In this document: in pieces, positions 4,262-25,540 of the stretch
Numbering within the stretch: the first letter of the stretch is position 1
How the letters are laid out: each line of letters starts with the position of its first letter
Assembly: GCA_964626355.1 (NCBI GenBank)
Contig: CAZVCF010000001.1
Span: forward strand, 26,936 to 61,235
Origin: an uncultured Gammaproteobacteria bacterium
GTDB lineage: Bacteria > Patescibacteriota > Patescibacteriia > UBA2591 > CAZVCF01
Reading direction: 5' to 3'
DNA length: 34,300 nt
Notes under the pieces: generated by a model
Seen by the model: the letters and a program-made list of their open reading frames with translations, nothing else
Databases searched by the model: none
Told to the model about the DNA's origin: nothing
Position numbers and translations under genes: made by a program

Positions 4262-4422
4262 TTGCGCGGATTCGGTCAACGCTTCCTTTTTCGGAGCTTC
4301 CGCTTCTTTTTTCTTTTGCGCCGCCTCTGCGCTCGCGAGTTGTGAAGGGTCGATAGCCACGTTCCAAATTAAAAATGTAAATATCAAAATGTAAAATATC
4401 TCCGATATATCCTCGTTCGTTC

Positions 4423-4450
4423 GGAAAGATAAAACATTTTTTATCTTTCC
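4423..4450. repeat. Perfect 12-bp stem / 4-nt loop hairpin inside the nested insert of element B
   Basis: ggaaagataaaa catt ttttatctttcc, verified base by base. Confidence 0.85.
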
Positions 4451-4486
4451 TCTCTTACTTCGGATATGACAATCTAAAATGATAAA

Positions 4487-4612
4487 ATTATTTTTGCCTT
4501 TACCAATAAGAATAATTGAAGCTATTTTTTAATAAACTCAATTAACCACAAAATTATATCATACGGTCTTTCTTAAATTCATTTTTAAATTTTGATTTGT
4601 CATTTTGATTTT
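4487..4612 (-). pseudogene. Internally deleted four-helix-bundle gene remnant
   Basis: The reverse complement of 4570-4612 (atgacaaatcaaaatttaaaaatgaatttaagaaagac) matches the 5' end of the intact gene (atggaaaatgacaatgcaaaatttaaaaatgaattcaagaaaagac). The reverse complement of 4487-4521 encodes ASIILIGKGKN*, against ASSILTLKGKK* in the intact copy. About 290 bp of the middle is missing. Confidence 0.7.
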
Positions 4613-4636
4613 TGATTTTTGCATTTTGAATTATTT

Positions 4637-5287
4637 CTATTCCATCCTCACTTTCTCTGCGTCTTCTAATTTTTGCGTATTCGCGATGACCGGATTAAAA
4701 CTCTCATATGCCAGTTCAATAAGACTTTGCGTATCAAGCGCAACACCCTTAATCCCCATTGCGTTAAGTTGCGACATCACATAGTCAACGCGCTTATAGA
4801 GATCGTTGCGAAATTTTTCAAAACGCTCTTTACTGATGTGGATTAACTGCGCGGCGGAAAAAAGATCGCCTAATCGCGCAAAAAATCCACCGCTATATTT
4901 GCCGCTCCCGGGCGTATACGGCACGACGATATAAAATTTCTTCACCATAATATCGCCAAGCTCAACAAGCTCGCGGACAAAATCGCGATAATCCGCCATC
5001 TGTATCGCCAGAAGATCGTTCTTCATTTGTTCTTGCTTTTTTTTCATTTCCTCAAGATACGGTTCAATATATAACTTGCGCGACTGCACAACAATCTCAA
5101 TTGGAAAATCAACTGAATTAAGAAAACGCACATACGAACTGATAATCGCTTCCTGCTCCTCTTCTGATTTTAACGAAAAATTGATTGACGACACCATAAT
5201 TACCGCGCGCAAACTCCCGTCCCGCATGACCATGCAGTCGTTTTTTATTTCAGAAATCGGAATATATTTTTGAGTTGAAGAAGGCAT
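4637..5287 (-). CDS. virB4: VirB4 N-terminal domain encoded as a separate ORF (split VirB4)
   Basis: ATG at 5287, 216 aa. STQKYIPISEIKNDCMVMRDGSLRAVIMVSSINFSLKSEEEQEAIISSYVRFLNSVDFPIEIVVQS follows the pattern of the extreme N-terminus of Gram-positive VirB4 proteins (Tn916 Orf16 / TcpF / PrgJ class), as recalled from memory. Confidence 0.65.
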   Translation of the reverse strand: MPSSTQKYIPISEIKNDCMVMRDGSLRAVIMVSSINFSLKSEEEQEAIISSYVRFLNSVDFPIEIVVQSRKLYIEPYLEEMKKKQEQMKNDLLAIQMADYRDFVRELVELGDIMVKKFYIVVPYTPGSGKYSGGFFARLGDLFSAAQLIHISKERFEKFRNDLYKRVDYVMSQLNAMGIKGVALDTQSLIELAYESFNPVIANTQKLEDAEKVRME

Positions 5288-5292
5288 AAATC

Positions 5293-5326
5293 AACGAATA
5301 ACGAATCTAATACGAATTTACGAATA
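5293..5326. repeat. 'cgaataacgaat / cgaatttacgaat' simple-repeat module (intergenic copy)
   Basis: aacgaataacgaat (5293-5306) and cgaatttacgaat recur verbatim inside leuS at 23341-23373. Confidence 0.8.
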
Positions 5327-5439
5327 AAGAAAAAATAATTTTATTCTGGGACAGTCCTCAAAAAAAGATAAGGATTGGAGACAATTTTTGTTAAAGGTCA
5401 AATGTCAATGGTCAATTGTTTTTCTCTATTTTTGATTTT

Positions 5440-5868
5440 TTATTTTTGATCTTGTTCTTCGTACGCTCCGCCGGTGTCAACGACTAATGATAATTTTGAC
5501 AATCGCGAAGTAGTTAATTGCGGTCTTTGAGGTGTCTTGTCTTCTTTTTTTTCATTACTATCTTTTATCTTCAGCGATACGATATTGAAATGTTCTCTTT
5601 GCCATATGCGCAAATTCGGTCGTTTGAATGTTTCCGCCATATTCAATAAAAAATAATGGAACGGCTTTCCGTTTACCTTGACAAACGCAAACAGAAGCGC
5701 GAGCGGTAGTATAAAAATACCTGATACGACGAAAAGAGTAAAATCTAAAATCTTATAATTCACAAAAAGAATGACAGCGGTCACGACCAAAATAATAAAT
5801 TGTCGCGGCGTTATTGGGCCGATAATTTTCGGTTCGATATTAATAAATTGCGGAACGATGAACTGCAC
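5440..5868 (-). CDS. PrgI-family / VirB3-like small membrane protein
   Basis: GTG start at 5868, 142 aa. The N-terminus MQFIVPQFINIEPKIIGPITPRQFIILV is followed by two TM helices (VVTAVILFVNYKIL, FVVSGIFILPLALLFAFV). It lies directly upstream of VirB4, as VirB3/PrgI genes do. Confidence 0.6.
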   Translation of the reverse strand: MQFIVPQFINIEPKIIGPITPRQFIILVVTAVILFVNYKILDFTLFVVSGIFILPLALLFAFVKVNGKPFHYFLLNMAETFKRPNLRIWQREHFNIVSLKIKDSNEKKEDKTPQRPQLTTSRLSKLSLVVDTGGAYEEQDQK

Positions 5869-8320: not shown

Positions 8321-11300
8321 TTATTTATTCTCTGATCGTTCTCCTCCAGACGCTTTTGGTGGCGGCTGTTCTTTTGTTTCTTTTTTTCTCTTTTGCGTGC
8401 TCTTTAGCTGCGCGCCATATCTCTTCTCAACTTCTTTATTAATATTTTTTTCTGCTTCTTCCGTCTCGTCAATAGTTTTTTTTGCTTTTTCTATTCTTTT
8501 CGTCAATAGATCAATTTGCGGATCCAGCGCATTGCTTTGCTCCAAAGTATATTTTTCTTGTATATCCAATAATTCTTTTTTCGCTGCATCAATATCTTCC
8601 TTCGCACGCTCTTTGTCCATTACGATTATGCTCTCTGTTTTTCCCTTTGCGACTTCTGGCACTACATCGCGAATCGCGATACGCAATGATGGGCTAATGC
8701 CTAATTTAGGCTCATTCAATATCCGTTCAAGAATCCTTGGATTATCCACTAATCCACCCACAAATTCTTTTAAATTCTCTGGCTTCTCTAAAACTATATT
8801 TTCAATTCCCTGTATTTCTATATCAGCGAAAATACGTGGATCTTTAAGATGCTTTCCTAAATCAGCGTAAGTAATATTTCCTTTATCTAACGCCTGCGAA
8901 AGCATAAGCGGTTTTTTTGTTGTTTTTACAGAGTTTACAATTAAATCAACTGAATATTTTTTGTTGTCTAATTCTTGTTGTTGTTGTTCGTTTGATGCGA
9001 TTTCGCTCTGTTTGTATTGGTATTCATCGCTCTTTTTTGCAACAGCTTCCGCCTCACCATCAGAAAGATCGGGCTTTTTCTCTTTCGCTTCCTGTATTTT
9101 TTTATTTTTAATAACTTCTAATTCTTTTTGCAATACAAGTTTATGCGCTTGTAATACAGTTGTTTGATTTTTCATATGATCTGAGAATTGTTCCATTTTA
9201 TTCAATCCTTTAGCCACTGCGTCTTGAATCGCCGGAGGCAAACGTTTATAATCCCGATCAAAACGATCGCCCAATCCAGAAACAATCGCGTGCGCAAATC
9301 GTTCTGCTGATTCTTCGCTCAAATGCTGTGCCTGATCAGGATTTTTACTGATATAAGAACCGAACTCCGCGTCATTTTTGAAATTTTTCTCAAGAGCGGT
9401 TTTCTGATCCACCCCTCTATTGATATCAATAATAAGATTACCTGCTATAGATTTCGCAAAATCCTGAAGTCCTGCTGGAGTTTTGTCATCATAAGCGATT
9501 TTATTAAATCCTTCGCGGACTAAATCTTTATTTGCAAGCGACGCGTCTTTCATCTGATTAGAGATATTCGGGTTCGCATCAGCAAAATCTTTTAACATCG
9601 CACTTCTGTTCGTTGTCATATCAGGCGTATCTTCTGTTGTATGAGTGAACGCTTTCATCATATTTTCAATATAATCTTTATTATTCAAATTAGTGCGGTC
9701 AATGGTGTATTCTTTGAAAAATGCGCTTATACCTTTATCATCAATTCCATTAGCGCGCAATGTATCAAACTTGCCAGTATTAATCGCTAAAAACTCCGCG
9801 GCAAGCGCGCGATGATCATTGCCCAAACCCTTGCCAGTTGCATCAGCTTTAAAAGTAGTTTCATCAACTTTAAAATTGTTAAAAAAATCTTTTTTATCCT
9901 CTGGCTTGATATCTCGGTATACCTCTTTTAAAAATGTGTCAAACTTTTCTTTTGTCATATCACGCGATTTTGCGATATCCGGGATAAGATCCGCGCGATC
10001 TTTCGCGCTCAATGAATTCATATCTACCTGACCGCTATTGATTCGATTAGCCAATCTTCCTCTTTCCTCTGGATTGTTGAGTTTATATGCTAATGAAGCG
10101 AATTGTTTGCTAATACCAAGCGTATCAATCCCTTGTTCAGTATCTAAAAGACCTATTTTTTTAAGCGCGTCTATATGTTTATTCATAATCTCTCCCCCTT
10201 TAATCTCTTTCCCTTCATCATCTTTCTCATCTTTTAATTTTAATCCTCCCTTGCGCCCTGCTAAGATTTTTATCATTGCCAATGATTCATCGCTTCCTGC
10301 TCGTGTTTTGCTTAATCGCTCTTGCAGTCCCTTTGTATCTAAATTTTTAAATTTTAAATTAGCCAAAAGCTCTATTTCTTTTTCTTTTCGGCTTGTCGTA
10401 AGTTGATCGGCCGCTAATTCCATCCGCGTCTTATCTTTATATATATCTTCTTTCCCTTGTACTTTCTTATAAAGATTTTTTAGATTAAGATATTTTCCGG
10501 CAACCGAAGCTCCTTTCACCCATTTTTCCGCGGAGAAATCAATTGCTCTACCGCGCGCGCGAGAAAAAATATTTCCCTCTTTTCCTGCCGCTCTTTTTGC
10601 TTCCTCGCGTCGTTTTGAAAAATCCTTGCGCAACTTCTTCGCTTTCATAAAATCTTCCGTCTTTTTTACCAATGTCCCTGCGGCTCCGCCCATTTGTGAT
10701 GCCATTGAAATGCTCATTTGCAAACCTCCTAAAAGCAACGCGATACCGATTATAAAATTCAGCATATACGCGGGCGTGCCGCTTGTTCCGGGGCCGACGG
10801 TCACGCCGCCTTCCTGTAATTTACTTTCCGCGCCGCCCATTTTCATTGTTCCTCCAATACCTTTATCACCCGCATCCGCAACAACCGCGAGCGCGAGCCA
10901 CAAAAAAAATGCAATAAAGGGCCCGACCATCACCGTTGTGCTAAATTTTGACCACCAATCGGTCGCAAAGCGTCGCGTAAACGGCAATATTGTTCCCACA
11001 AACGCGATCGGAGACATTGCCACTAAAAGCCACAACGATACAATACGCGCGACAATAATAGACAACATTACGCCGACGACAATAACGGCGATTACTAATA
11101 ACACGATTGCGAGAATGAGCGAGCCAAGAAGATTTCCAGTGCTTTGAGCGGTTGCCGGTCCATTCGCCGTTTCCACCATATCTTTGATGCCTAACAAGGC
11201 TGCCATATTCCCCTCGCCCGCGTCTTTAAGCGCGGACATAAAAGTCAACATCACCACTTGTCCGAAATCAATAAGCAATCCCGCGATCGCTTTGCTGAAA

Positions 11301-11701
11301 TTGACCATCACCGCCGCGGTTAATAACGCCGGCAATGTTTTACTGTAATGATATTCTTGCCAACCGAGCACGGTCGCGAATGAAATCACCAGCAAAATCA
11401 CAATGAAAAACATATTAAATACGTCGCGCAAAATTACCCATCCTTTTGTCACCGCTCCTGAATCCATAAACCCATTATATTGTCCAACCGCAATGACAAG
11501 GCGCACTTCAAGACCCAATAATTTCCCCAAAACATTAATAATCATTCCAAAAAATGATCCAAGCGCTGTATTTAACCACTCTTGCGCTAAAACAACATTC
11601 GGCGCGAATAACAAAAAAACGAATAGTGCGATACATAAACCAGCGCACATTTTTTTGTGTTGCGAAAAAAAATTAAAAAAAAATTTGCGAAATATAATCA
11701 T
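8321..11701 (-). CDS. VirB6/TrbL-like polytopic membrane protein with a ~750-aa charged C-terminal extension
   Basis: ATG at 11701; the ORF-track GTG at 11839 overlaps the upstream gene by 98 nt. The signal-like N-terminus is MIIFRKFFFNFFSQHKKMCAGLCIALFVFLLFAPNVVLAQE. The next ~350 aa hold at least 6 hydrophobic helices (e.g. FNMFFIVILLVISFATVLG, LGSLILAIVLLVIAVIVVGVMLSIIVARIVSLWLLVAMSPIAFV, VMVGPFIAFFLWLALAVV). A K/E/D-rich tail follows. Confidence 0.6.
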   Translation of the reverse strand: MIIFRKFFFNFFSQHKKMCAGLCIALFVFLLFAPNVVLAQEWLNTALGSFFGMIINVLGKLLGLEVRLVIAVGQYNGFMDSGAVTKGWVILRDVFNMFFIVILLVISFATVLGWQEYHYSKTLPALLTAAVMVNFSKAIAGLLIDFGQVVMLTFMSALKDAGEGNMAALLGIKDMVETANGPATAQSTGNLLGSLILAIVLLVIAVIVVGVMLSIIVARIVSLWLLVAMSPIAFVGTILPFTRRFATDWWSKFSTTVMVGPFIAFFLWLALAVVADAGDKGIGGTMKMGGAESKLQEGGVTVGPGTSGTPAYMLNFIIGIALLLGGLQMSISMASQMGGAAGTLVKKTEDFMKAKKLRKDFSKRREEAKRAAGKEGNIFSRARGRAIDFSAEKWVKGASVAGKYLNLKNLYKKVQGKEDIYKDKTRMELAADQLTTSRKEKEIELLANLKFKNLDTKGLQERLSKTRAGSDESLAMIKILAGRKGGLKLKDEKDDEGKEIKGGEIMNKHIDALKKIGLLDTEQGIDTLGISKQFASLAYKLNNPEERGRLANRINSGQVDMNSLSAKDRADLIPDIAKSRDMTKEKFDTFLKEVYRDIKPEDKKDFFNNFKVDETTFKADATGKGLGNDHRALAAEFLAINTGKFDTLRANGIDDKGISAFFKEYTIDRTNLNNKDYIENMMKAFTHTTEDTPDMTTNRSAMLKDFADANPNISNQMKDASLANKDLVREGFNKIAYDDKTPAGLQDFAKSIAGNLIIDINRGVDQKTALEKNFKNDAEFGSYISKNPDQAQHLSEESAERFAHAIVSGLGDRFDRDYKRLPPAIQDAVAKGLNKMEQFSDHMKNQTTVLQAHKLVLQKELEVIKNKKIQEAKEKKPDLSDGEAEAVAKKSDEYQYKQSEIASNEQQQQELDNKKYSVDLIVNSVKTTKKPLMLSQALDKGNITYADLGKHLKDPRIFADIEIQGIENIVLEKPENLKEFVGGLVDNPRILERILNEPKLGISPSLRIAIRDVVPEVAKGKTESIIVMDKERAKEDIDAAKKELLDIQEKYTLEQSNALDPQIDLLTKRIEKAKKTIDETEEAEKNINKEVEKRYGAQLKSTQKRKKETKEQPPPKASGGERSENK

Positions 11702-11741: not shown

Positions 11742-14700
11742 CTAGTCAATATATCGCTCGTTTTGAGGATCCCAATTCGGATCTGGCGCGTTTCCGCACG
11801 GACCCCCTGCTGTTCTTGGATACGTGTAACAGGATCCACCGCCTTGATATTTTAATGGCGCGCCGGCAGAACCCTCCGGATCTAATAAATCTCCGTCGTC
11901 ACACTGCTCATAAGCCTCAACAATTCCATTACTACAAACATTCTGTTTGCACGATCGTGCTACATTAAAGCGTGGACAACTCGCGCTTGAATCATCACAG
12001 TCTTCTCCGGGTTCTATAATATCATTGCCGCAAATCGGAGCTGCGGCGCCAGTCGGCAGCCACGTGATACATTCCGCAATCTCTCCATTACGTGAAGTGT
12101 CGTATTCCAAACAATATCCTTTTTGCCCGCGATATATTTTTTCCTTCAAATCAATAAACGCCGACACCTCGCATTTGCCCGGATTGTTGCTTAAATCAAT
12201 TCCGCAATCGCCATCAGTACTACACGGTCTTCCGACCATATCCGGCCGCCCATTGATACAGGTCTTCGCACGAAATCTATTCGATGATTCATTATCATTC
12301 AAATAAAAAATCTGTGATTGTCCGACAGCAACTTTTTTATAATTACACTGACATTGCTCCAGAGACGTAGAAGTCGAATTACATACATTCACATTTACAT
12401 ATCCTAATCCTCCTTCTTCTACTGAACCACCGATAATCTGCTTAAACGGAGAATCTTTTTCCGGGAACGCCTTACAAATCTGTGGCGTTGTTGTCGCGAG
12501 ATCAAGTCCAAGCGATGATATACCGATAGACCCGTCACCATACGAAAAAAGACGCCGATCGCTTGTACGTTGATAGAGCGATTCAATCGGTTTTATATTC
12601 ATCAACGAATAACCTGAATAATCAAGACCGGTGAAGGTTACGTCGCGCTTAATATATTCTTGTTGATGCAACGCCGACGCGCTTGAAGTAGCGTGTATCA
12701 CGAGCACGAGATTATTCGGATCGTTTTCAAAATAACCGCGTCGTCCCTGACTGATACTTACACATTTGTTGCGATATTGCCCATTCAAATCATAGACCTG
12801 CTCATACGCGGTGCATGCAATCCACTCTCCGCAGGTACGGTCTTTACGCGCTTGAAAAATCACATTCGCATCGTTAAGGTTTGACATTTCACCTGGCTGT
12901 AAAGCAACGGGATCAATTAAACTATACGGCGGTGTCGCGTTTTTGCTTTTCTGGTAGGTCGCAGCGGTTTTATAATATTTCACCACATTGCTCTCTATAT
13001 CTTTCAACGATGTGTCAATCACCAATACGCAATCTTCGGCGGCGCTTACTTTACCTTGACATTCGCCTCTCTTCAAACGCGCGTTATTAAGATAATAATA
13101 TTTTTGCCGATTTAATTTTGATAAATTGTCTGGATCTGTTGGGTCAGGCACTTCAAATAACGAACATTTTTCTTTTGATGATGGGCACACTGCCGCCGCG
13201 TACTTTGTTGATTCATTTCCCCACGTATAACTCGGACTGACCGGATTATTTTCGAAATCGCACGCTTCTTCGGTGCCACGTTTGAACCATCCTGAAATTT
13301 TTGCTGAGGTAACTCCGTTGAGCACTACTGCGATGTTCGTTTTGTATTCGCACGTCTTAACCGGGTCCTTGAAATATACCTTTCCGCCGCTTGAATCTTC
13401 AAACGTCTGACATCCTGTTTTCTCCGAGCCACATAAAATAGAATTATCGCGATACCGATTCGGAGTATCTTTCACATATACGTTTCGATAAGTCGTTGCC
13501 TCGCCATTTGAACCGAGACTCGGCATTCCAAACCGGCTACATCCCATATTAAGCGCTGTACATTGTTTCGCCTTGAAATCATTTTTTTCAGGCGTGTATA
13601 CATAATACTCGATGGTGTCGGTTGCGATAGTCAGTGGCGCGTTGTTATACAATCCTTTGTCAACAGATTCAGAAAACGGTGTTAACGTATTTTGCGTATT
13701 GATAAACGCTTCGCATCCAACTTTTTGTTCTGAACATAAATTCGTAAATGATTTGAGCGTTTTTGTTTGTTTCGCGCGATTCGTATATGAGCGGCAACCA
13801 AGAAAGTTTGGTTCCGGCTTACACGAATCAGGCGTATTCCACGTATCGGAAATCAAATAAAAATTTTGATTTACTTCCTGTAAAAAAATATTGTCAAAAA
13901 ATACCGTTGGCGTTCCTCCGCCAAAATACTCAACCCGTATTGTCAGTTCGCTGTTTTGGTCGAAATCTCTATTAAGATAGAACGTGCCAAAATCAATTTT
14001 CTGCCATCCGATTGCGCCAGTTACCGGAGCGCCCCACCGAATTCCTCCAATAAACGCAGTTGCGGCAATATTTGTTGATACTGGATCCGGCACATTAATC
14101 CACGCGCTTAACGCATATGATCTTTCTCGTCGCACTAATGAACCGATTGGTCTTGTTATTGTTGCGACATACGGCGCGCTGCCTGTCCGTAGAACCATAA
14201 TTGAATGTCCTCCGAAATAAATTGACTCCGTGCTCATCTCGATAGTATTGCCACTATACGGCACGAATGAACCATTTTCGAAATTGTCATACAAAATCGT
14301 TCGTACATTCGCGCCGGCGTTGCCTTGATATTTTTCACAACCGACCGCGCTTGCGCTGCACGTTTTCCCTTGTGCCGCGATCGCCATAAAATTAATCTTC
14401 TCGCATGCGCCGTTATTCATCACACCATTGATTGAAACACACGTTGTTGTTGGCAGATCGTAAATCGCTGGTTCGGTTTTACGATACGCGGAACAGTCAG
14501 CGGAACACGAAATCGTATTTTCAAAAACACGATAATAAATTCCTCCTTTTGAATCGTAAAATTCCTTGCAATTCGGATTCACCAGCGCATCGTCGTGGCT
14601 CGCGCAATTACCCAAATCAACGCGCGGATTTGGAACGGTTTTTGGACCACCGCTTGCTGAATTTTCAGAAAGATAATAACGCTTCAATTGATAGCCACTT

Positions 14701-17126
14701 GTGTCGCTTCCGACCCATGTGTAGTAATTCTTGCACGTCGCGCCAACAGGATTGACCGGCGGCGGCACAATCGCTCCAGTTGCGTCAAGTTTCACACACT
14801 GACGAATCTGCGTATAATATTCTCGTCCCTCGCCGCCTTTCGCCACCTCGGACAAATTGGTAAATTCTGAACAACCGACCGCGTTCGCGCTGCAACTTTC
14901 CGCGCTCTTTGGAATAAAATTCAATAAATCTCTTCCCTTGTTAAAGTTGCTCGGCATTTCTTTGAATGTTTCTAATCCAACGCACTCCGACGGACATTGA
15001 TCGTTATCGGTCACAATCGCGGGAATTTTTTTGTCCGGAAAATTTTGATCATAATACGCGTCACATCCAACTTGTTGATAGGAACATTGCGTGAGATATT
15101 TTTCACATTCAGGAGAATCGTTGTCAGAGCTGCCGTCGTAGCATTTCATCCACTCCGGAGCTTTGCGCAAATACGCGCTGTTCGCAAAACCATATTTTTT
15201 GAATGGCGTCGCGCGCGTTCCCGCTTCAAATTGAATATTATCAATTGATAACGCGCCGCTTCCGGAAAATACGTCAGATATAAAAATCTGTAAATCCTCT
15301 GAATTATTGAGGTCAGAAAAACTATTGAACGGATGCGCGAATGAAAGACTATAACGTTGCCAATCGGATTGAGATGCTATTATCGTTGAAACGACCACAA
15401 CGCCTGACCCGGCATAATCTGCTCCGCGCAACGAAATCGTATGATTATTTATATCACTATTTTTCGCGTCAAAAGAAATTGTATAGGTTCCAACTGGGAG
15501 AACAATTGGATCTTCCGGACGAATTCCTGATCCGGACGCGCTTATAAAAACATTTACATTTTCTCCGTTTGCGGTGCTAGTCGCGCTGAACGAAACTCCT
15601 GAACCAATTGTTTGCCATCCTTTCACTTCATTCGCGCCAACAACGCCATCTCTGTTCGCATCAACCCAATCATTCAATTCCGGATTTCGCGCGAGATTCG
15701 TTCCTAAACCGCTCTTTTCACGCGAGAACCACGTGCATCCTTCCGCAGTTGGTTTGCACAATTCCGCGCGCGCGTTAAAAAATTTCGCGTTCAATGGATT
15801 TGTTGTCGTGTTCGCAACTGTTTCGGTTGAAGTGACTGAATAATTAAAACAATCTCTTCTGCACTCACTCGAGCCTCCTTTTCCTTCTCTTAATTCGCAA
15901 AGATCATTCCCACATTCCTCAAGGGGAGGATTATCTATTGGACCTTCCTCTTTCCAAACCTCCATAATATTTGCAACCGTTGTTACGTTACTTATTGAAA
16001 GACCCGGTTTCTTGCACTTCCACGCGCCGGTTGTGATATCCTTATCATATTCCTGGCACAACCATTGACATCCGGACGAGTCCTGATCGCATTGCGCAGA
16101 ATCCAAACTATTCGCCAAATAAAAAAACTTTTTATCGTCTTTAAGACGGGTGTATTTGCCGCAACTTTCGTATTGCGTTTCGCACGCGTCGCCGTCAAAC
16201 CGCCACCGATTCAATTCACGCGTGCAATATCCCCACGCGACGCATTTGCCATTTTCATCCTCGCGCACGCAATCTTGCGTATCAACGCACGTTTCATTTC
16301 GATCTTTTGATTCCGGCGATTGCGGCGAACGGCTGTACGCGGTCAATTCGCATCGCAAAGGCGGTAATTTTAATACCCAGCTCGGATCAACTAAATTGCA
16401 AAATGGGCTTGTGTCATCAATAGTGCCACATTTTCCATCCGGACCGTATTGATAAAAACCATTGACAATTTCCCGCAACTTCACTTTATCAGTCCCCCGG
16501 ATGAGCGGATCATTCCCAATACGACGCGCAGCTATTTCCAATCCAAGAGGCACCACGCGCGCGCGGCGCAATTTTTTTATATTGCTCAATGAATAACGGG
16601 TTGTATAATCTGCAACACCATCAACCGTATCTCTCGTTGGCGCGCCAACGAACCAATCACCATGCAGATATCCTTTCTCAATCGCGCGCTTAATAGTGAG
16701 ATGCTCTTCAATCGCCTGACGAAAACCGGTGTCAATAACACAGTTGTTCACTGTCGCGTATTTTGCTCCTTGCGGAGGGCACAGCGAAAATTCAGTCAGT
16801 AAATCAACCGATCCTGCTTGTTTCAGCTCAACCAATTGCACGCCCGGCGATGTTTGTGGTTCGCTTGGAATAAAATCTTTCTCCTCCTGCGCACTTGATT
16901 CTTCTGACAACGCACTTTCCTCCGCACTGCCTTCAACACCGCCCAGACTTTGGCCTCCGCCAATTGATAGTCCACCTCCCGGAATCAATTGATTCTGGCA
17001 CGTATTCGTCGGATCATACGGACAAGGGTCTCTCGCGGGACGAGATTGGGCAAAAACAACACCGCCGGCAATCAAAATGATTCCGAAGAATATAAATAAT
17101 ATTATTTTTTTTCGAGAAAACAACAT
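11742..17126 (-). CDS. Giant (~1794 aa) secreted cysteine-rich protein with two CBM4_9-like beta-sandwich regions and C-terminal Myxococcus-type cysteine-rich repeats
   Basis: ATG at 17126 gives the signal peptide MLFSRKKIILFIFFGIILIAGGVVFAQS; the ORF-track TTG at 17144 lies in a repeat arm. There are at least 10 copies of C-x6-C-x2-[FYW] (CSANAVGCSEF, CSASAVGCEKY, CSEQKVGCEAF, CTALNMGCSRF, CGSEKTGCQTF and others). The jelly-roll-like segments are ~15219-15700 (NLARNPELNDW...NIQFEAG) and ~13875-14298 (ILYDNFENGSF...FFDNIFLQE). CGNDIIEPGEDCDD and CSNGIVEAYEQCDDGD are encoded at 11889-12032. Confidence 0.85.
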   Translation of the reverse strand: MLFSRKKIILFIFFGIILIAGGVVFAQSRPARDPCPYDPTNTCQNQLIPGGGLSIGGGQSLGGVEGSAEESALSEESSAQEEKDFIPSEPQTSPGVQLVELKQAGSVDLLTEFSLCPPQGAKYATVNNCVIDTGFRQAIEEHLTIKRAIEKGYLHGDWFVGAPTRDTVDGVADYTTRYSLSNIKKLRRARVVPLGLEIAARRIGNDPLIRGTDKVKLREIVNGFYQYGPDGKCGTIDDTSPFCNLVDPSWVLKLPPLRCELTAYSRSPQSPESKDRNETCVDTQDCVREDENGKCVAWGYCTRELNRWRFDGDACETQYESCGKYTRLKDDKKFFYLANSLDSAQCDQDSSGCQWLCQEYDKDITTGAWKCKKPGLSISNVTTVANIMEVWKEEGPIDNPPLEECGNDLCELREGKGGSSECRRDCFNYSVTSTETVANTTTNPLNAKFFNARAELCKPTAEGCTWFSREKSGLGTNLARNPELNDWVDANRDGVVGANEVKGWQTIGSGVSFSATSTANGENVNVFISASGSGIRPEDPIVLPVGTYTISFDAKNSDINNHTISLRGADYAGSGVVVVSTIIASQSDWQRYSLSFAHPFNSFSDLNNSEDLQIFISDVFSGSGALSIDNIQFEAGTRATPFKKYGFANSAYLRKAPEWMKCYDGSSDNDSPECEKYLTQCSYQQVGCDAYYDQNFPDKKIPAIVTDNDQCPSECVGLETFKEMPSNFNKGRDLLNFIPKSAESCSANAVGCSEFTNLSEVAKGGEGREYYTQIRQCVKLDATGAIVPPPVNPVGATCKNYYTWVGSDTSGYQLKRYYLSENSASGGPKTVPNPRVDLGNCASHDDALVNPNCKEFYDSKGGIYYRVFENTISCSADCSAYRKTEPAIYDLPTTTCVSINGVMNNGACEKINFMAIAAQGKTCSASAVGCEKYQGNAGANVRTILYDNFENGSFVPYSGNTIEMSTESIYFGGHSIMVLRTGSAPYVATITRPIGSLVRRERSYALSAWINVPDPVSTNIAATAFIGGIRWGAPVTGAIGWQKIDFGTFYLNRDFDQNSELTIRVEYFGGGTPTVFFDNIFLQEVNQNFYLISDTWNTPDSCKPEPNFLGCRSYTNRAKQTKTLKSFTNLCSEQKVGCEAFINTQNTLTPFSESVDKGLYNNAPLTIATDTIEYYVYTPEKNDFKAKQCTALNMGCSRFGMPSLGSNGEATTYRNVYVKDTPNRYRDNSILCGSEKTGCQTFEDSSGGKVYFKDPVKTCEYKTNIAVVLNGVTSAKISGWFKRGTEEACDFENNPVSPSYTWGNESTKYAAAVCPSSKEKCSLFEVPDPTDPDNLSKLNRQKYYYLNNARLKRGECQGKVSAAEDCVLVIDTSLKDIESNVVKYYKTAATYQKSKNATPPYSLIDPVALQPGEMSNLNDANVIFQARKDRTCGEWIACTAYEQVYDLNGQYRNKCVSISQGRRGYFENDPNNLVLVIHATSSASALHQQEYIKRDVTFTGLDYSGYSLMNIKPIESLYQRTSDRRLFSYGDGSIGISSLGLDLATTTPQICKAFPEKDSPFKQIIGGSVEEGGLGYVNVNVCNSTSTSLEQCQCNYKKVAVGQSQIFYLNDNESSNRFRAKTCINGRPDMVGRPCSTDGDCGIDLSNNPGKCEVSAFIDLKEKIYRGQKGYCLEYDTSRNGEIAECITWLPTGAAAPICGNDIIEPGEDCDDSSASCPRFNVARSCKQNVCSNGIVEAYEQCDDGDLLDPEGSAGAPLKYQGGGSCYTYPRTAGGPCGNAPDPNWDPQNERYID

Positions 17127-17129
17127 CTT

Positions 17130-17473
17130 AAATTCAAAATGCAAAAATCAAAATGCAAAATGACAATGTAAAATGCAAAATAATCAATAAAAATTTTATA
17201 TTTTCAATTTTTATTAAATTTTTCCGATTTCCTTTTAAAAAATCGTGTATCTTTGATTGTTTCGCATCGGGACAATAAATCAATTTTCGATAATTCTAAT
17301 TTTAGTTTTAAGTTGTAGTTTGATTCGTGCTTTAATTATTATAAAGGGTGGTAGTTCGTATTTTGCGCTCGCTTGAAAACAAAAAAAGTGAAATCAAGCG
17401 AAGCCTTCTGTTTATTTAAATTTTATCATTTAATCATTGTCATTTTCCATTTTGATATTTACATTTTACATTT
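17130..17473 (-). mobile_element. Decayed IVS-like inverted-repeat element (element D) between the 777-aa and giant genes
   Basis: The left arm at 17130-17185 is aaattcaaaatgcaaaaatcaaaatgcaaaatgacaatgtaaaatgcaaaataatc. The right arm at 17414-17473 is ...atcattgtcattttccattttgatatttacattttacattt. The arms are largely reverse-complementary (atcaaaatgNaaaatgacaatg core). The interior has no long ORF. Confidence 0.55.
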
Positions 17474-19805
17474 AATTGTCGCACAACCCATCTCCATCCG
17501 TGTCTCCTCCATACGGGCCGCACAAATCTGACGGTTGCGTTGGCGTAGTGCCGCCATTGCTCTTTAATCCATCTTCAACGCCTCCTCCGAAATCTCCACT
17601 CTCTGAACCGTCTTCATTAAACGTTTTACCAGCACTACTTCCTCCGAAACGGCCTCCCTGTGACCCCTGAACGCTTCCGCCGCAATCAGACGGACACGAT
17701 AATACTGTTTCTCCCGCGCCGCAATATTGATCACCGCATTGCTCGCTTGCCCCACTCGAATTCTCCGTCTTTCCAAGTTGTTCACGTAGATCTTTGGTAA
17801 AATTCTGCTCTTGTTCCGATGGATTTTCTTGTTTGTTTAATTCATTGATAGCTTTCTCAAGTAATTTTTTCATTAATGTACTCATAAAAATTCCGAATGC
17901 GTCCGCGACCGCGGATCCAGTCATCACCAATGGTCCTTTAAGCGGTCCTTTCATTTCCCCTAACTCTTTTTCAACATACGCGGCAGGAGTTTTCACTCTT
18001 CCGGATATATTTGACGTCAAACTATTTAATCCTCCTTCAATTTGTTTCATCTTTTCAGCAACGTCTTTTTCAACTCCCATTTTTTTGAGCAACTCACTTT
18101 CAACGCCAAGTTGCGCGCTAATCGGATTACTTCCCTGTTCAAACGATTTTGTTAAATCGTCAAGACTTCCCGCTTCAGGAGGAATCGACATACTGGCAAA
18201 ATCCGTTTTCTCCGCTGACGTCAACAATCCCGCTTGCCAGTCATTCAATTTCAAAACATATTCATTAATTTTATCTAATACTTTTCTGTAATGGATGAAT
18301 GCGTTCGCTTTATTTTGCTGACATCCGATCGTATTGCCGCTTGTGCACGCCGCACTCGCGTCGCGCGTGCATTGTGGCTCTGTGAAATTATTAAAATCTG
18401 GATAGTTAATCGGACCGACGCTTTCATCTTTAAACATCAAATTATTATAAACGAACGTTCTGCACTCATTAACATTACAAAATGAGGCAATGTCGCCTTT
18501 TTGTCTGCATACTGCGAACGAAGAGGTAAGCGCAAGAAATGTATCTTGCATATCTTTTCCAACCCCCTTAAGAATGGGAATCACTAACGACGTCAGTTTA
18601 TCTTGTAATTTTTTATTATTTAATGCATTAGCAGCTGCGGTTTGATGAGCAATTCCTAATTCGCTCACCTGTTGCCTAAGCTCCTCCTCTAGCTCAACTT
18701 TATCTTTCTTCAATTTTTCAACACCTGCATTCATTTCTTCATACCTATTCGCATAAGTACACCCCTCTTGGGTATATGAGCATTTCCTCGGTTGATTTTT
18801 CCAATGTGATTGTACCGCGCCACTCATACTATCAAAACCATCAATTTTCGCTGTAATATCTTCTAAAGATTTTGAGTATTTTTCTTTCTGCTCTTTAATC
18901 TTGCGCTCAACACGCGCTCTATTTTTTTTATCGGTTTTCAAAGCCCTATTTAATAAATCCTCATATTTCTCATGCGATGCCTCTATTCTCGCGCCAAATC
19001 CACCAACAATACCTTCTCGTATTTTAGGCCCTGCCGCCACCCCATACGGAACGTAAAATGGCCCGTACACTGCGTCAGTTGTTTCATTAAATGAAGCAAG
19101 AAAATACTCGCCATACAGTCTGCTTTTCATATCCCACGGCAAAAGAGTATTGGTAAGAATCGCAGTTTTCAAATCTTTTTTATAACCGCCGGCCGGACCT
19201 TCGGTTAATCCAAAACTCGCTTTGAAAGTAAATTTAGCGGCTGAATTGCGCGCGTTCTCCCATATCTTTGTAAATGAACACTTATACAATTCCGGCGCGG
19301 GTTTTGGCGCGGTCGTGTCAAGATTGATAAGCATCTTGAATTTAATACTTGGATCAATCGGATCGCAGAGATTAAAATTTTTGAAGCCAGACACAGAACT
19401 AAACGTATTTTGAAGCAGTTCCCCGCCAACCGAATCTGCAAGTTTGGTAAAATAATGCGGATCTGATAAAAACATCGGCTTCTGTCCCTTGCCGCCGGAC
19501 GCGACCCATTCGGCGCTCTGTTGCGCGGCTTGATTGAGAAAAATAGTCAAACCGTTGCGATACGCGACCGCAACCCCTTCTTTCATCACAAATTCCGCTA
19601 CCCGTTTTGCCACATCCCAGACGAACTGCCCTACCTTAGTAACCGTATCAACGATGATACCACCAACCGCTCCGGGATCAAAAGTAATAAACTGCGCCTG
19701 CGCGGGTTTCGGCGCGGCGAATAAACCAAAAACGAAAAAAAACAACATCATCGAAACGATCGTTCGACGCATTTTTAAATTTTGATTTTTGTGGTTGAAT
19801 CTCAT
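17472..19805 (-). CDS. Secreted 777-aa protein with a coiled-coil-rich middle and a C-terminal Cys-knot and DxDxDG motifs
   Basis: ATG at 19805, with an alternative ATG at 19772. The signal peptide is MRRTIVSMMLFFFVFGLFAAPKPAQAQ. The C-terminus contains EQCGDQYCGAGETVLSCPSDCGG and DLCGPYGGDTDGDGLCDN. I recognise no family. Confidence 0.75.
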   Translation of the reverse strand: MRFNHKNQNLKMRRTIVSMMLFFFVFGLFAAPKPAQAQFITFDPGAVGGIIVDTVTKVGQFVWDVAKRVAEFVMKEGVAVAYRNGLTIFLNQAAQQSAEWVASGGKGQKPMFLSDPHYFTKLADSVGGELLQNTFSSVSGFKNFNLCDPIDPSIKFKMLINLDTTAPKPAPELYKCSFTKIWENARNSAAKFTFKASFGLTEGPAGGYKKDLKTAILTNTLLPWDMKSRLYGEYFLASFNETTDAVYGPFYVPYGVAAGPKIREGIVGGFGARIEASHEKYEDLLNRALKTDKKNRARVERKIKEQKEKYSKSLEDITAKIDGFDSMSGAVQSHWKNQPRKCSYTQEGCTYANRYEEMNAGVEKLKKDKVELEEELRQQVSELGIAHQTAAANALNNKKLQDKLTSLVIPILKGVGKDMQDTFLALTSSFAVCRQKGDIASFCNVNECRTFVYNNLMFKDESVGPINYPDFNNFTEPQCTRDASAACTSGNTIGCQQNKANAFIHYRKVLDKINEYVLKLNDWQAGLLTSAEKTDFASMSIPPEAGSLDDLTKSFEQGSNPISAQLGVESELLKKMGVEKDVAEKMKQIEGGLNSLTSNISGRVKTPAAYVEKELGEMKGPLKGPLVMTGSAVADAFGIFMSTLMKKLLEKAINELNKQENPSEQEQNFTKDLREQLGKTENSSGASEQCGDQYCGAGETVLSCPSDCGGSVQGSQGGRFGGSSAGKTFNEDGSESGDFGGGVEDGLKSNGGTTPTQPSDLCGPYGGDTDGDGLCDN

Positions 19806-20127: not shown

Positions 20128-20961
20128 CTACTTTTTCTCTTCCTCCGCGATAAACTTATTCACTAACAATTGCAAATTTGCATCATCAATCGAGCCTAAT
20201 ATTTCCTTGTTAAAACCTTGCTGAATTAATAATTGCCGTATTTGCGCCGGTGGCATTTGTTTTAATAATTGCAATGCTTGCTTGGAAACAGCAGTTGAAG
20301 TTGATTGTTGATTGTTGATTGTTGATTGTTGATTTCCAATACCAATTCCCTGCGACAATAATGCCGCAGGATCAATTCCTGTTTCTGCTTTAGTATTATT
20401 ATACAAGTTTACAAGCGTTTGGTCATCGAGGTTTTGCACAAGATCGCGCGGCGCGCCCGCGGCAATAAGCGCGTCGCGAATTTTTTGAAGCAATGCCGAC
20501 GACGGTCGTTGAACGAGCGTTTCGTCTTTTATTTCTTGCTGTAAATTGTTATCTGTCTGTTGTTGATTGTTGATCGTCGATCGTTGATCGTTAACTGTTG
20601 ATCCAACGTCTCCAAGCGTATCGCCCTCTTTTCGCGGCGCGCTGTTTTTATCCAACGGATTACTCTTCGCGGTAATTTCATCTTTGTCGTTTGTTCCATC
20701 GCCGTCTGAATCTTGCAAAAAAACGCTGGTTCCATAAATATACCGTTCCTGATAATCATCAATACTATCGCCATCCGTATCGGTCGCGCGCAATTTTTTA
20801 ATCAAATCTTCTTGAGTTGGTTGTACGATTTTCGCAATTTCTTGAAGCAAAAAAGGAGCGCGAATAGCGCCCTTCAATTTAACAGAACTCAAAAAAATAA
20901 CGCCTCCTCCGAAGAGGATAAGAAAAATCAATAATCCAATTTTTTGTTTATTTTTCCCCAT
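20128..20961 (-). CDS. N-terminally anchored protein with thrombospondin-type-3-like DxDxDG calcium-binding motifs and Q/N/T-rich repeat tracts
   Basis: ATG at 20961, 277 aa. The TM is IGLLIFLILFGGGVIFLSS. The calcium-binding-like stretch is TDTDGDSIDDYQERYIYGTSVFLQDSDGDGTNDKDE. QQSTINNQQSTS is encoded by a heptamer microsatellite. The gene overlaps the rsmA 3' end by 34 nt. Confidence 0.7.
   Translation of the reverse strand: MGKNKQKIGLLIFLILFGGGVIFLSSVKLKGAIRAPFLLQEIAKIVQPTQEDLIKKLRATDTDGDSIDDYQERYIYGTSVFLQDSDGDGTNDKDEITAKSNPLDKNSAPRKEGDTLGDVGSTVNDQRSTINNQQQTDNNLQQEIKDETLVQRPSSALLQKIRDALIAAGAPRDLVQNLDDQTLVNLYNNTKAETGIDPAALLSQGIGIGNQQSTINNQQSTSTAVSKQALQLLKQMPPAQIRQLLIQQGFNKEILGSIDDANLQLLVNKFIAEEEKK
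20294..20334. repeat. Heptanucleotide microsatellite (ttgattg; ~5 copies plus a variant unit) inside the 277-aa CDS
   Basis: gttgaag ttgattg ttgattg ttgattg ttgattg ttgatt, read on the minus strand as GNQQSTINNQQSTS with a 21-nt / 7-aa period. Confidence 0.9.
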
Positions 20962-25479: not shown

Positions 25480-25489
25480 ATCATAATTC

Positions 25490-25540
25490 AAAAATCAAAA
25501 ATAAAAAATCAAAATGACAATGCAAAATTCAAAATTATTT
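25490..25540. repeat. Solo IVS-element arm (left-arm orientation) in the leuS 5' leader
   Basis: The core aaaatcaaaatgacaatgcaaaat within aaaaatcaaaaataaaaaatcaaaatgacaatgcaaaattcaaaattattt is largely complementary to the arm inside leuS at 24321-24380. Confidence 0.75.

What the first reader, a model, noticed from the sequence alone, without database searches (positions are those of the whole stretch)
11742..17126. ~1800-aa secreted protein built from a recurring C-x6-C-x2-aromatic module, two jelly-roll regions and Myxococcus-type Cys repeats
After a clear signal peptide the protein carries at least 10 copies of a short motif, mostly C-x5-G-C-x2-[FY]. Examples are CSANAVGCSEF, CSASAVGCEKY, CSEQKVGCEAF, CTALNMGCSRF, CGSEKTGCQTF, CSYQQVGCDAY and CKPTAEGCTWF. 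Two segments resemble CBM4_9/galactose-binding-like sandwiches (~15219-15700 and ~13875-14298). The C-terminus has CGNDIIEPGEDCDD / CSNGIVEAYEQCDDGD repeats (11889-12032). A giant disulfide-rich binding protein encoded immediately upstream of the VirB6-like gene is a strong candidate for the adhesin or tip of the apparatus. I do not recognise the C-x6-C module as a named domain.
Basis: partly seen in the sequence, partly recalled or inferred. Interest (0 to 1): 0.7.

Follow-up and report, generated by a model that had tools for sequence, protein, structure and literature searches.

The report
Giant cysteine-stapled surface protein, T4SS-linked
This 1,794-residue exported protein of an ultra-small (Patescibacteria) bacterium has ten invariant Cys-x6-Cys loops and two sugar-binding-type jelly-roll domains; it belongs to a large, unnamed family that nearly always sits beside the type IV secretion genes, so it is a testable candidate for the part of that machine that touches the host cell.

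Summary
ORF 11742-17126 (-) encodes a 1,794-aa protein with a signal peptide and 76 Cys. It has 10 C-x6-C-x2-aromatic matches against 0.36 expected by shuffling. Ten Cys pairs are essentially invariant in 179 family representatives that share at most 50% identity. AlphaFold and Foldseek confirm two CBM4/9/22-like jelly rolls. The Myxococcus-type repeats are a sub-threshold, lineage-specific tail.

New findings:
- The loops belong to an internally duplicated unit of loop, jelly roll and three more loops (hhalign E 3.7e-14).
- The gene is the distal two-thirds of a normally single gene of about 2,740 aa. Here it is split, and ORF 17472-19805 is the missing head.
- The family is large: at least 1,234 clusters and 428 species genomes, all apparently Patescibacteria. 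No Pfam, NCBIfam or PDB match covers anything except the jelly rolls.
- It lies in a conserved block: LeuRS, KsgA, TSP3 protein, giant, VirB6-like, PrgI, TrsD, VirB4. A VirB6-like gene follows in 53 of 60 loci.

The scaffold is conserved and the jelly rolls are variable. The best reading is a disulfide-stapled stalk that presents lectin-like heads at the T4SS, acting as an adhesin or tip. This rests on linkage and architecture, not on any direct test. A VirB5-like head domain remains unsupported (hhalign probability 9%).

The parts
17046..17126 (-). Signal peptide (aa 1-27)
   Evidence: Basic n-region, hydrophobic core with KD 2.98, and a VFA|Q site. Fused homologues have no signal peptide at this position, only at their own N-terminus.
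16830..17045 (-). Gly/Ser/Glu-rich linker (aa 28-99), new sequence created at the fission point
   Evidence: Similarity to P0006 starts at aa 80 of this protein, matching P0006 aa 501. Conservation is low.
16437..16829 (-). Conserved helical domain (aa 100-230)
   Evidence: AF2 pLDDT is 84-96 and the segment is helical. Consensus frequency is 0.46. A profile of aa 100-372 found no Pfam or PDB relative.
16011..16430 (-). Cys-rich domain I (aa 233-372). It holds the most conserved peptide, LVDPxWVLK, and modules at aa 315 (16152-16184) and aa 346 (16059-16091).
   Evidence: Cys conservation is 0.97-1.00. Both Cys of each pair are present in 176 of 179 representatives. The AF2 model is poor here, with pLDDT 30-50.
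15726..15758 (-). Module aa 457 (CKPTAEGCTWF), first element of duplicated unit 1
15207..15701 (-). Jelly roll 1 (aa 476-640), CBM4_9/CBM22-like
   Evidence: Pfam CBM_4_9 E 1.4e-3. NCBIfam GTA_spike_fiber E 2.8e-5. AF2 beta-sandwich. Foldseek hits. This is the most variable folded region, with column entropy 3.09 bits.
14322..15164 (-). Stalk A (aa 655-935). Modules at aa 681 (15054-15086), aa 745 (14862-14894) and aa 923 (14328-14360), plus a degenerate C-x3-C copy at aa 711-715.
   Evidence: Entropy is 2.12 bits. Cys pairs are present together in 177-179 of 179 representatives. Modules 745 and 923 lie in model regions with pLDDT 84-92 and read as Cys, a 3-residue helical turn, Cys, then a beta-strand.
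13857..14309 (-). Jelly roll 2 (aa 940-1090)
   Evidence: AF2 beta-sandwich with pLDDT 80-92. Foldseek CBM hits. hhalign aligns it with jelly roll 1. Entropy is 2.66 bits.
13107..13844 (-). Stalk B (aa 1095-1340). C-x8-C at aa 1102-1111; modules at aa 1131 (13704-13736), 1189 (13530-13562), 1232 (13401-13433) and 1314 (13155-13187).
   Evidence: In model 2 the second Cys of each module starts a beta-strand.
12033..13106 (-). C-terminal conserved region (aa 1341-1698), fold unknown
   Evidence: Family match columns have entropy 2.77 bits. AF2 is confident only for aa about 1344-1424. Foldseek against PDB gave no hit with E <= 0.001.
11889..12032 (-). Two Myxococcus-type acidic Cys repeats (aa 1699-1746), lineage-specific
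   Evidence: TIGR02232 E 1.1e-3 with 2 stretches, and PF13948 E 0.012, both below cut-off. No family match columns.
17127..17471 (.). AT-rich 345-bp spacer at the gene fission point
   Evidence: No coding potential is apparent in the sequence as read; six-frame translation was not completed. None of 65 related loci shows such a clean split.
17472..19805 (-). 777-aa ORF: the detached head of the family protein, with its own signal peptide and a helical domain carrying the ASGGxGQKPxF motif
   Evidence: BLASTP against the N-terminal ~500 aa of P0006 gives E 3e-35 and 2e-16. Most of the 36 homologues carry this region. It is fused in 64 of 65 loci.
8321..11701 (-). Extended VirB6-like membrane protein: 7 TM segments in the first ~375 aa, then a hydrophilic extension of ~800 aa
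   Evidence: Pfam TrbL E 4.9e-4 here; 6 of 30 orthologues hit TrbL, best E 2.9e-5, all below cut-off. TM scan. Start position.
2441..5868 (-). VirB4 ATPase (2441-4387), TrsD-like (4637-5287) and PrgI/VirB3-like (5440-5868)
   Evidence: Pfam P-loop_TraG 1.7e-28 and PrgI 6.5e-8. NCBIfam TrsD 7.9e-7.
20128..20961 (-). Membrane-anchored TSP3/dockerin-like Ca-loop protein, the conserved upstream neighbour
   Evidence: Pfam TSP3_bac 2.2e-4. One N-terminal TM segment. Present upstream of the giant in most loci.

Best explanation
The ORF encodes the Sec-exported body of a giant cell-surface protein. This protein is a dedicated, vertically inherited accessory of the chromosomal, monoderm-type (MPF_FATA-like) type IV secretion locus of Parcubacteria/ABY1-type Patescibacteria.

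Ten short loops of the form Cys-x5-[G]-Cys-x2-aromatic are each probably closed by a disulfide and each lead into a beta-strand. They staple a long beta-rich stalk. The stalk carries two fast-evolving CBM4/9/22-like jelly-roll heads, arranged as a tandem duplication of loop, jelly roll and loops.

In nearly all relatives the stalk is fused to an N-terminal helical domain of about 500 aa. In this genome that domain is a separate gene (17472-19805), and the stalk has acquired its own signal peptide.

The proposed role is to project from the envelope beside or on the VirB6-like channel protein and to bind surface polysaccharide of the host cell through the jelly rolls. That would make it the adhesin or tip that holds the secretion machine against the host.

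Shown here: the export signal, the domain anatomy, the invariance of the Cys pairs, variable heads on a conserved scaffold, the family size, and the linkage to T4SS genes.

Inferred: disulfide formation, glycan binding, physical association with the T4SS, and the adhesin role.
For: Motif and Cys pairs:
- The motif is over-represented about 28-fold over shuffles.
- Each of the 10 Cys pairs is present together in 168-179 of 179 family representatives that share at most 50% identity.
- In both AF2 models the second Cys starts a beta-strand in all 8 modules inspected. The two modules in confident regions (aa 745 and 923, pLDDT 84-92) show Cys, helical turn, Cys, strand.

Architecture:
- Internal duplication: aa ~453-779 aligns with aa ~919-1261 in hhalign, probability 98.2%, E 3.7e-14.
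- The jelly rolls are confirmed structurally. Their nearest neighbours are CBMs and phage tail-fibre or host-specificity proteins.
- The jelly rolls are the most variable folded parts, at 3.09 and 2.66 bits against 2.10-2.34 for the stalks. This is the pattern expected for ligand-binding heads on a conserved scaffold.

Export:
- The fission product needed its own signal peptide, which argues that the whole body is extracytoplasmic.

Linkage:
- The order TSP3 protein, giant, VirB6-like, PrgI, TrsD, VirB4 lies on one strand with short gaps in L001-L004.
- A VirB6-like gene lies downstream in 53 of 60 loci.
- The giant to VirB6-like link persists in 4 loci that have lost the KsgA neighbour.
- The gap between the giant and the VirB6-like gene here is about 40 nt.
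- No VirB2-like pilin array was seen in the window.

Literature:
- The 2025 survey of Patescibacteria T4SS reports that no adhesin was detected (PMC12102498).
Against: - No sequence or structural homology to any known T4SS component or adhesin was found.
- The housekeeping genes KsgA and LeuRS are linked as tightly as the VirB6-like gene (47 against 46 of 51 loci). Conserved order could therefore reflect a frozen chromosomal block rather than shared function.
- In about 5 of 51 loci no VirB6-like gene follows the giant.
- The VirB6-like assignment itself rests on sub-threshold TrbL hits plus membrane topology.
Several modules lie in regions with pLDDT below 50.
- No cell-anchoring motif was found: no LPXTG and no C-terminal TM segment.
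- Glycan binding is inferred from the fold alone.
Confidence: 0.5

Rival explanations
1. The protein is a structural, wall-spanning part of the T4SS rather than a host adhesin. The stalk would form an extracellular shaft or scaffold, functionally replacing a pilus or VirB8-type scaffold. The jelly rolls would bind the bacterium's own peptidoglycan or wall polysaccharide to anchor the machine.
For: The linkage evidence is the same as for the best explanation. No VirB8 homologue or pilin array was seen in the window. The protein has no anchor of its own, so it must dock onto something. The stalk is highly conserved.
Against: Heads that bind the cell's own conserved wall would be expected to be conserved, yet the jelly rolls are the most variable folded regions. 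Their nearest structural neighbours include phage host-recognition proteins.
Confidence: 0.2
2. The protein is a general surface or envelope protein, for example an S-layer-like coat or an adhesin independent of secretion. Its gene would merely sit in a rarely rearranged chromosomal block that also happens to hold the T4SS genes.
For: KsgA and LeuRS, which are unrelated to secretion, are conserved neighbours at the same frequency. About 5 of 51 loci have other genes downstream. No homology to any T4SS part was found.
Against: The adjacency is same-strand with short gaps across relatives only 25-40% identical. The giant to VirB6-like link survives where the KsgA link is broken (L005, L049, L070, L079). 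In L005 the inserted genes are themselves cohesin-type surface-assembly proteins.
Confidence: 0.15
3. The protein is a secreted toxin or effector. Its jelly rolls would act as receptor-binding domains, as in Cry or binary toxins, and it would be released toward the host.
For: Top Foldseek PDB hits include Cry1Aa, CDTb and iota-toxin Ib. The protein is exported by Sec and has no anchor.
Against: Those matches have query TM of about 0.12, meaning they cover only the jelly-roll domain. No pore-forming or enzymatic domain was detected by Pfam, NCBIfam or PADLOC-independent searches. Strict one-copy vertical inheritance in a fixed locus is unlike toxin genes.
Confidence: 0.07

Closest known systems
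PrgB (aggregation substance) and other surface adhesins encoded in monoderm MPF_FATA conjugative T4SS loci such as pCF10
   Same: Both are large Sec-exported surface proteins encoded within a Gram-positive-type T4SS gene cluster (PrgH/VirB6, PrgI/VirB3, PrgJ/VirB4). The presumed role is to hold two cells together for the secretion machine. The family descriptions come from established knowledge and PMC12102498.
   Different: There is no sequence or fold similarity. The protein has no LPXTG anchor. It is 2-3 times larger when fused, Cys-rich, and built from loops plus jelly rolls. It is chromosomal and vertically inherited, not plasmid-borne. PMC12102498 found no PrgB homologue in Patescibacteria.
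VirB5/TraC/TrwJ pilus-tip proteins of MPF_T systems
   Same: Both are Sec-exported and encoded next to VirB6, and VirB5 sits on VirB6 in the stalk (established knowledge). The detached head (ORF 17472-19805 and its fused homologues) begins after the signal peptide with AQ-[FIV]-x-V-x-D-P and later has [ST]GGxG. R388 TrwJ has MAQ-GIPVFD...TGGRGLG.
   Different: VirB5 is about 220 aa. Profile-profile comparison is not significant: hhalign probability 1.3% against TrwJ alone and 9.3% (E 0.0035) against a 9-member VirB5 alignment. The only Pfam signal is sub-threshold DUF4141 hits in 6 of 25 sequences. The 1,794-aa body has no counterpart in VirB5.
CBM4_9 / CBM22 / CBM61 carbohydrate-binding modules, and phage receptor-binding proteins that carry CenC-type CBMs
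   Same: The beta-jelly-roll fold of aa 476-640 and aa 940-1090 is shared. Foldseek gives target TM 0.58-0.63 and E about 1e-6 to 3e-7 for 4xup, 4xuo and 2xom, and E down to 1e-12 for phage tail fibres and host-specificity proteins.
   Different: The sequence is below the Pfam gathering score. No glycoside hydrolase or phage module is attached. The binding residues were not examined.
Helicobacter pylori CagY (recalled from own knowledge, not tested here)
   Same: CagY is a giant T4SS-associated protein whose repeats carry regularly spaced Cys residues.
   Different: CagY is a VirB10 homologue of a diderm system with helical repeats. No similarity was detected or tested here.
Myxococcus cysteine-rich acidic repeat (TIGR02232 / PF13948 DUF4215)
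   Same: The signature C-x-N-[GD]-x-[IV]-E-x-x-E-x-C-D-D occurs twice at aa 1699-1746.
   Different: Both copies are below the curated cut-offs. The repeats occur only in this lineage's tail and are unrelated to the C-x6-C modules.

Membership tests
Pfam CBM_4_9 (PF02018) | HMM score at or above the gathering threshold (25.9 bits) | tested here: not met
   The score is 19.4 bits, E 1.4e-3, over aa 500-603. Many homologues carry precomputed PF02018 hits, marked faint where a mark was shown.
Pfam CBM_4_9 (PF02018) | Beta-jelly-roll (galactose-binding-like) fold | tested here: met
   The AF2 model shows beta-sandwiches at aa 476-640 and 940-1090. Foldseek matches CBM22 and CBM61 with target TM 0.58-0.63.
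Pfam CBM_4_9 (PF02018) | Carbohydrate binding through a cleft lined with aromatic residues | not testable with these tools
Myxococcus cysteine-rich repeat (TIGR02232 / PF13948) | HMM score at or above the curated cut-off | tested here: not met
   TIGR02232 scores 18.7 against 20.8. PF13948 scores 16.3 against 27.
Myxococcus cysteine-rich repeat (TIGR02232 / PF13948) | Signature C-x2-G-x3-x-x-E-x-C-D-D-G in tandem | tested here: met
   CGNDIIEPGEDCDD and CSNGIVEAYEQCDDGD occur at aa 1699-1746.
Type IV secretion system component (MPF_FATA-like locus of Patescibacteria) | Homology to a described T4SS subunit (VirB1-11, Prg, Trs or Tcp families) | tested here: not met
   No hit was found in Pfam, NCBIfam, PHROGs or PDB for the body.
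Type IV secretion system component (MPF_FATA-like locus of Patescibacteria) | Conserved co-location and co-orientation with virB4, virB3 and virB6 | tested here: met
   The window and L001-L004 show the full order. A VirB6-like gene lies downstream in 53 of 60 loci. Caveat: KsgA is equally linked.
Type IV secretion system component (MPF_FATA-like locus of Patescibacteria) | Physical presence in the assembled machine, or a requirement for secretion | not testable with these tools
   This needs cryo-ET, pull-downs or genetics.
VirB5 / TraC family (applies to the detached head, ORF 17472-19805) | Significant profile similarity to VirB5 proteins | tested here: inconclusive
   hhalign gives probability 9.3%, E 0.0035, over 82 columns against 9 MPF_T VirB5 sequences, and 1.3% against TrwJ alone. 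A profile search of the PDB found nothing.
VirB5 / TraC family (applies to the detached head, ORF 17472-19805) | Three-helix-bundle fold with a globular appendage | not tested
LPXTG-anchored Gram-positive adhesins (PrgB type) | C-terminal LPXTG sorting signal followed by a TM segment and a basic tail | tested here: not met
   The C-terminus ...PNWDPQNERYID has no such motif and no hydrophobic segment.

The most novel reading that the evidence does not exclude
The fused head plus body is the missing extracellular end of the Patescibacterial type IV secretion machine in Parcubacteria/ABY1 lineages. In this reading a VirB5-like head domain docks on the extended VirB6. It has been elongated by a disulfide-stapled stalk of about 2,000 aa, made from a previously undescribed Cys-x6-Cys loop module. 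The stalk carries variable lectin heads that set host specificity, taking the place of the VirB2 pilin arrays seen in Saccharimonadia. It would be the first host-recognition determinant proposed for the episymbiotic T4SS.
Probability: 0.2. Interest if true: 0.85.

Novelty: new variant of a known kind. Interest (0 to 1): 0.6.

Why it matters
The T4SS is widespread in Patescibacteria, a large share of uncultured bacterial diversity. It is essential for epibiotic growth in the one species tested, yet its function and its host-contacting parts are unknown (PMC10633639, PMC11665869, PMC12857230). The 2025 survey found no adhesin (PMC12102498).

This work identifies a very large, unannotated, extracellular protein family with at least 1,234 clusters at 50% identity and 428 species genomes. 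It is wedged between a conserved membrane protein and the VirB6-like gene. It has a conserved Cys-stapled scaffold and variable lectin-type heads.

That gives a concrete, testable candidate for host recognition. It also provides a marker for this type of locus and a new short structural module for domain databases.

Tried and rejected
- A global search for the C-x6-C module outside the family failed. The 40-aa alignment A5 gathered only 12 word-sharing candidates and none was significant. This is uninformative, not negative. Locally, the module HMM hit only the giant among 2,335 ORFs in 85 loci.
- A global search with the head-domain profile A3 returned nothing, not even its own members. The candidate list was probably saturated by signal-peptide words. 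This is uninformative.
- A Foldseek search of the C-terminal model (aa 1095-1794, mean pLDDT 57) against the PDB gave no hit with E <= 0.001.
- A profile of aa 100-372, the most conserved part, found nothing in PDB or Pfam.
- PHROGs gave nothing for the body. The head has a weak tape-measure hit (E 2.8e-4), read as coiled-coil composition.
- The VirB5 hypothesis for the head was tested against R388 TrwJ and a 9-member alignment. Probabilities were 1.3% and 9.3%, so it is not supported. DUF4141 hits are sub-threshold and overlap the signal peptide.
- My first count of 4 split relatives was wrong. On re-inspection three are fused and one is a frameshift.
- Cry and binary-toxin Foldseek hits were rejected as jelly-roll-only matches, with query TM about 0.12.
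- The VirB6-like profile found nothing in the PDB.
Full report
**1. The observation**

The ORF runs 11742-17144 on the minus strand. The first ATG, at 17126, gives a 1,794-aa product. Its N-terminus, MLFSRKKIILFIFFGIILIAGGVVFAQ, has the n-region, h-region and c-region of a Sec signal peptide. It is the only hydrophobic segment in the protein.

The protein has 76 Cys. Spacing of exactly six residues between successive Cys occurs 12 times. The strict pattern C-x6-C-x2-[FYW] occurs 10 times, against a mean of 0.36 and a maximum of 3 in 300 shuffles. All seven quoted examples are present at the expected coordinates.

Two corrections apply:
- The match at aa 1710 lies in a non-conserved tail and does not fit the module HMM (-2.1 bits).
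- A conserved tenth module at aa 346 has its aromatic residue one position earlier.

A consensus from 353 family instances reads C-x-A-x-x-V-G-C-x-E-[YFL]. Gly occurs at 82% and Tyr/Phe/Leu at 94%.

**2. Family and conservation**

A word-indexed search found 37 relatives, all giant proteins from Patescibacteria (1,369-3,116 aa, 26-38% identity). Those that carry a name are labelled hypothetical, carbohydrate-binding, dockerin or LamG domain-containing.

An exhaustive phmmer search of aa 225-1340 against 1.84 billion cluster representatives found 1,284 proteins with E <= 1e-3, 1,234 with E <= 1e-10 and 1,068 with E <= 1e-30. Most of the top 150 are 2,000-3,600 aa long.

A scan of one genome per GTDB species found relatives in 428 genomes. 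The named ones are Falkow-, Uhr-, Kerfeld-, Komeili- and Buchananbacteria, Parcubacteria and 'Patescibacteria group'. Many TPA MAGs are labelled 'uncultured Gammaproteobacteria', and one 'Bdellovibrionales', but they carry the same locus and are probably mislabelled.

Across 179 representatives aligned to the family HMM, each of the ten Cys pairs is present as a pair in 168-179 sequences. One-sided losses are almost absent. This is very strong purifying selection on the pairs.

**3. Structure**

Two AF2 models were built on a 37-sequence alignment:
- aa 95-1100: mean pLDDT 71.
- aa 1095-1794: mean pLDDT 57.

Confident parts are a helical domain (aa ~100-230, pLDDT 84-96), both jelly rolls (aa 476-640 and 940-1090) and most of stalk A.

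Foldseek against the PDB returned only jelly-roll matches. Single-domain CBM22 and CBM61 chains gave target TM 0.58-0.63. Cry, CDTb and iota-toxin hits had query TM of about 0.12. Against BFVD, the hits were phage tail fibres, host-specificity proteins and CenC-type CBM proteins. The C-terminal model had no hit with E <= 0.001.

In the DSSP strings, the second Cys of every module inspected (8 of 8) is the first residue of a beta-strand that contains the aromatic residue. In the two modules inside confident regions (aa 745 and 923), the six-residue loop contains a three-residue helical turn.

**4. The modules belong to a duplicated unit**

A profile-profile comparison of family sub-alignments aligned aa ~453-779 with aa ~919-1261. 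The probability was 98.2%, E 3.7e-14, over 276 columns.

Each unit consists of a module, a jelly roll, a module, a module (degenerated to C-x3-C in unit 1), a module, and then GG..Y[YF]..C.

Column entropy is lowest in the Cys-rich and stalk regions (2.10-2.34 bits) and highest in the jelly rolls (3.09 and 2.66 bits). The tail with the Myxococcus-type repeats has no family match columns. The picture is a conserved scaffold with variable heads and a lineage-specific tail.

**5. The gene is half of a split gene**

Homologues are typically about 2,740 aa (median of 67 complete ORFs). Their first ~500 aa match the upstream ORF 17472-19805 (777 aa), with BLASTP E 3e-35 and 2e-16 against P0006. Most of the 36 homologues carry this region.

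In related loci the two parts share one ORF in 64 of 65 cases. One case is a frameshift.

In this window a 345-bp AT-rich spacer separates the two parts. The second gene has gained a new signal peptide and a Gly/Ser/Glu linker. That the detached body needed its own export signal is independent evidence that it is extracytoplasmic.

**6. Genomic context**

All of the following lie on the minus strand of the window:
- LeuRS (22885-25491) and KsgA (20928-21779).
- A membrane-anchored TSP3 Ca-loop protein (20128-20961).
- The head (17472-19805) and the body (11742-17126).
- An extended VirB6-like protein (start about 11701; 7 TM segments plus ~800 hydrophilic aa).
- An acidic 721-aa cytoplasmic protein (6140-8305).
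- PrgI/VirB3-like (5440-5868), TrsD-like (4637-5287) and VirB4 (2441-4387).

The same order occurs in L001, L002/L003 and L004. In 80 species genomes a VirB6-like gene follows the giant in 53 of 60 loci that have at least 3 kb downstream. L007, L012, L035 and L042 reach further downstream genes (the 721-aa protein's homologue, then PrgI and TrsD).

Caveats:
- Of 51 loci with flanks on both sides, KsgA is present in 47 and the VirB6-like gene in 46. Linkage alone therefore cannot separate shared function from a frozen chromosomal block.
- Four loci keep the VirB6-like gene but not KsgA. Five keep KsgA but have no detectable VirB6-like gene. Three of those five have other genes downstream.
- The VirB6-like assignment rests on topology, position and sub-threshold TrbL hits in 6 of 30 orthologues (best E 2.9e-5).

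**7. Literature**

- Quinonero-Coronel et al. 2025 (PMC12102498) describe this MPF_FATA-like T4SS across Patescibacteria. They note KsgA near virB4 and VirB2 arrays mainly in Microgenomatia and Saccharimonadia, and state that no adhesins such as PrgB were detected. They mention no giant Cys-rich protein.
- The T4SS is essential in Southlakia epibionticum and its role is unknown (PMC10633639; PMC11665869; PMC12857230).
- A 2026 preprint reports tubular structures at a Patescibacteria-host interface that may be T4SS pili (10.64898/2026.06.21.733656).
- Full-text searches for this family or module found nothing.

**8. Interpretation**

The best reading is a Sec-exported, disulfide-stapled stalk bearing two variable lectin-type heads, dedicated to the T4SS locus and acting as its host-binding adhesin or tip (confidence 0.5).

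The rivals are:
- a wall-spanning structural shaft that binds the cell's own wall (0.2);
- a general surface protein linked only by a frozen gene order (0.15);
- a secreted toxin (0.07).

**9. The VirB5 lead**

After signal-peptide cleavage, the head of the family begins AQ-[FIV]-x-V-x-D-P and later has [ST]GGxGQKP. R388 TrwJ begins MAQ-GIPVFD and has TGGRGLG.

hhalign of the head profile gave probability 1.3% against TrwJ alone. Against a 9-member MPF_T VirB5 alignment it gave 9.3%, E 0.0035, over 82 columns. Pfam shows only sub-threshold DUF4141 hits in 6 of 25 sequences, and a profile search of the PDB found nothing. This is not supported at accepted thresholds. It is kept as a lead with a probability of about 0.15.

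**10. Verdict**

The module is unnamed and, as far as could be tested, specific to this family. The link to the T4SS locus is strong but only correlative.

The feature is a new variant of a known kind, namely surface proteins that accompany monoderm T4SS loci. It is built from a previously undescribed module and defines a very large unannotated family.

Noticed in passing
window 17472-19805 (-) and 17127-17471: The 777-aa ORF is the detached N-terminal head of the giant family protein. A clean gene fission with a 345-bp AT-rich spacer was seen in none of 65 related loci. The head ends in a TSP3-like DTDGDGLCDN motif.
   Followed up: yes
window 20128-20961 (-); P0020 and P0025; L005:14730-22645: The conserved upstream neighbour is a membrane-anchored protein with two Ca-loop (TSP3/dockerin-like) motifs. 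Some giant homologues carry dockerin repeats (PF00404). In L005, cohesin-domain proteins are inserted between the giant and the VirB6-like gene. This hints at a cohesin-dockerin-type surface assembly.
   Followed up: partly
window 6140-8305 (-): A 721-aa acidic, low-complexity protein with no signal peptide and internal repeats (…TQINADK.DAD.RGQEETRI.AD…). It occupies the conserved slot between the VirB6-like and PrgI genes and has no family hit.
   Followed up: partly
window 26387-27712 (+); L001:4366-5574; L002:1521-2699: A LysM-CHAP (or LysM-M23) wall hydrolase recurs a few genes upstream of the block, on the opposite strand. It is a candidate VirB1-type hydrolase for this T4SS.
   Followed up: no
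P0002; L001:25286-28781: Inteins occur in relatives. One giant homologue has Hint/intein Pfam hits, and the VirB4 gene of L001 carries an intein with a LAGLIDADG endonuclease.
   Followed up: no
window 8321-11701 (-): The VirB6-like protein is of the 'extended' type, with 7 TM segments followed by a hydrophilic domain of ~800 aa of unknown fold. Orthologues range from 667 to 1,786 aa.
   Followed up: partly
loci L008-L012, L017, L019-L022, L071 and others: Many species-representative MAG records titled 'uncultured Gammaproteobacteria', and one titled 'Bdellovibrionales', carry the Patescibacteria-type block LeuRS, KsgA, TSP3, giant, VirB6-like. The taxonomic labels are probably wrong.
   Followed up: no
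window 1984-2355 (-) and 22014-22568 (-): A 23S rRNA intervening-sequence protein gene lies just downstream of VirB4. A PaaX/Cas2-like domain protein lies between LeuRS and KsgA.
   Followed up: no
window aa 399 of the target (about 15930-15932): The database representative P0001, reported as 100% identical, reads K where the window translation reads N (…EGPIDNPP… against …EGPIDKPP…). This is a single-residue difference between cluster members.
   Followed up: no
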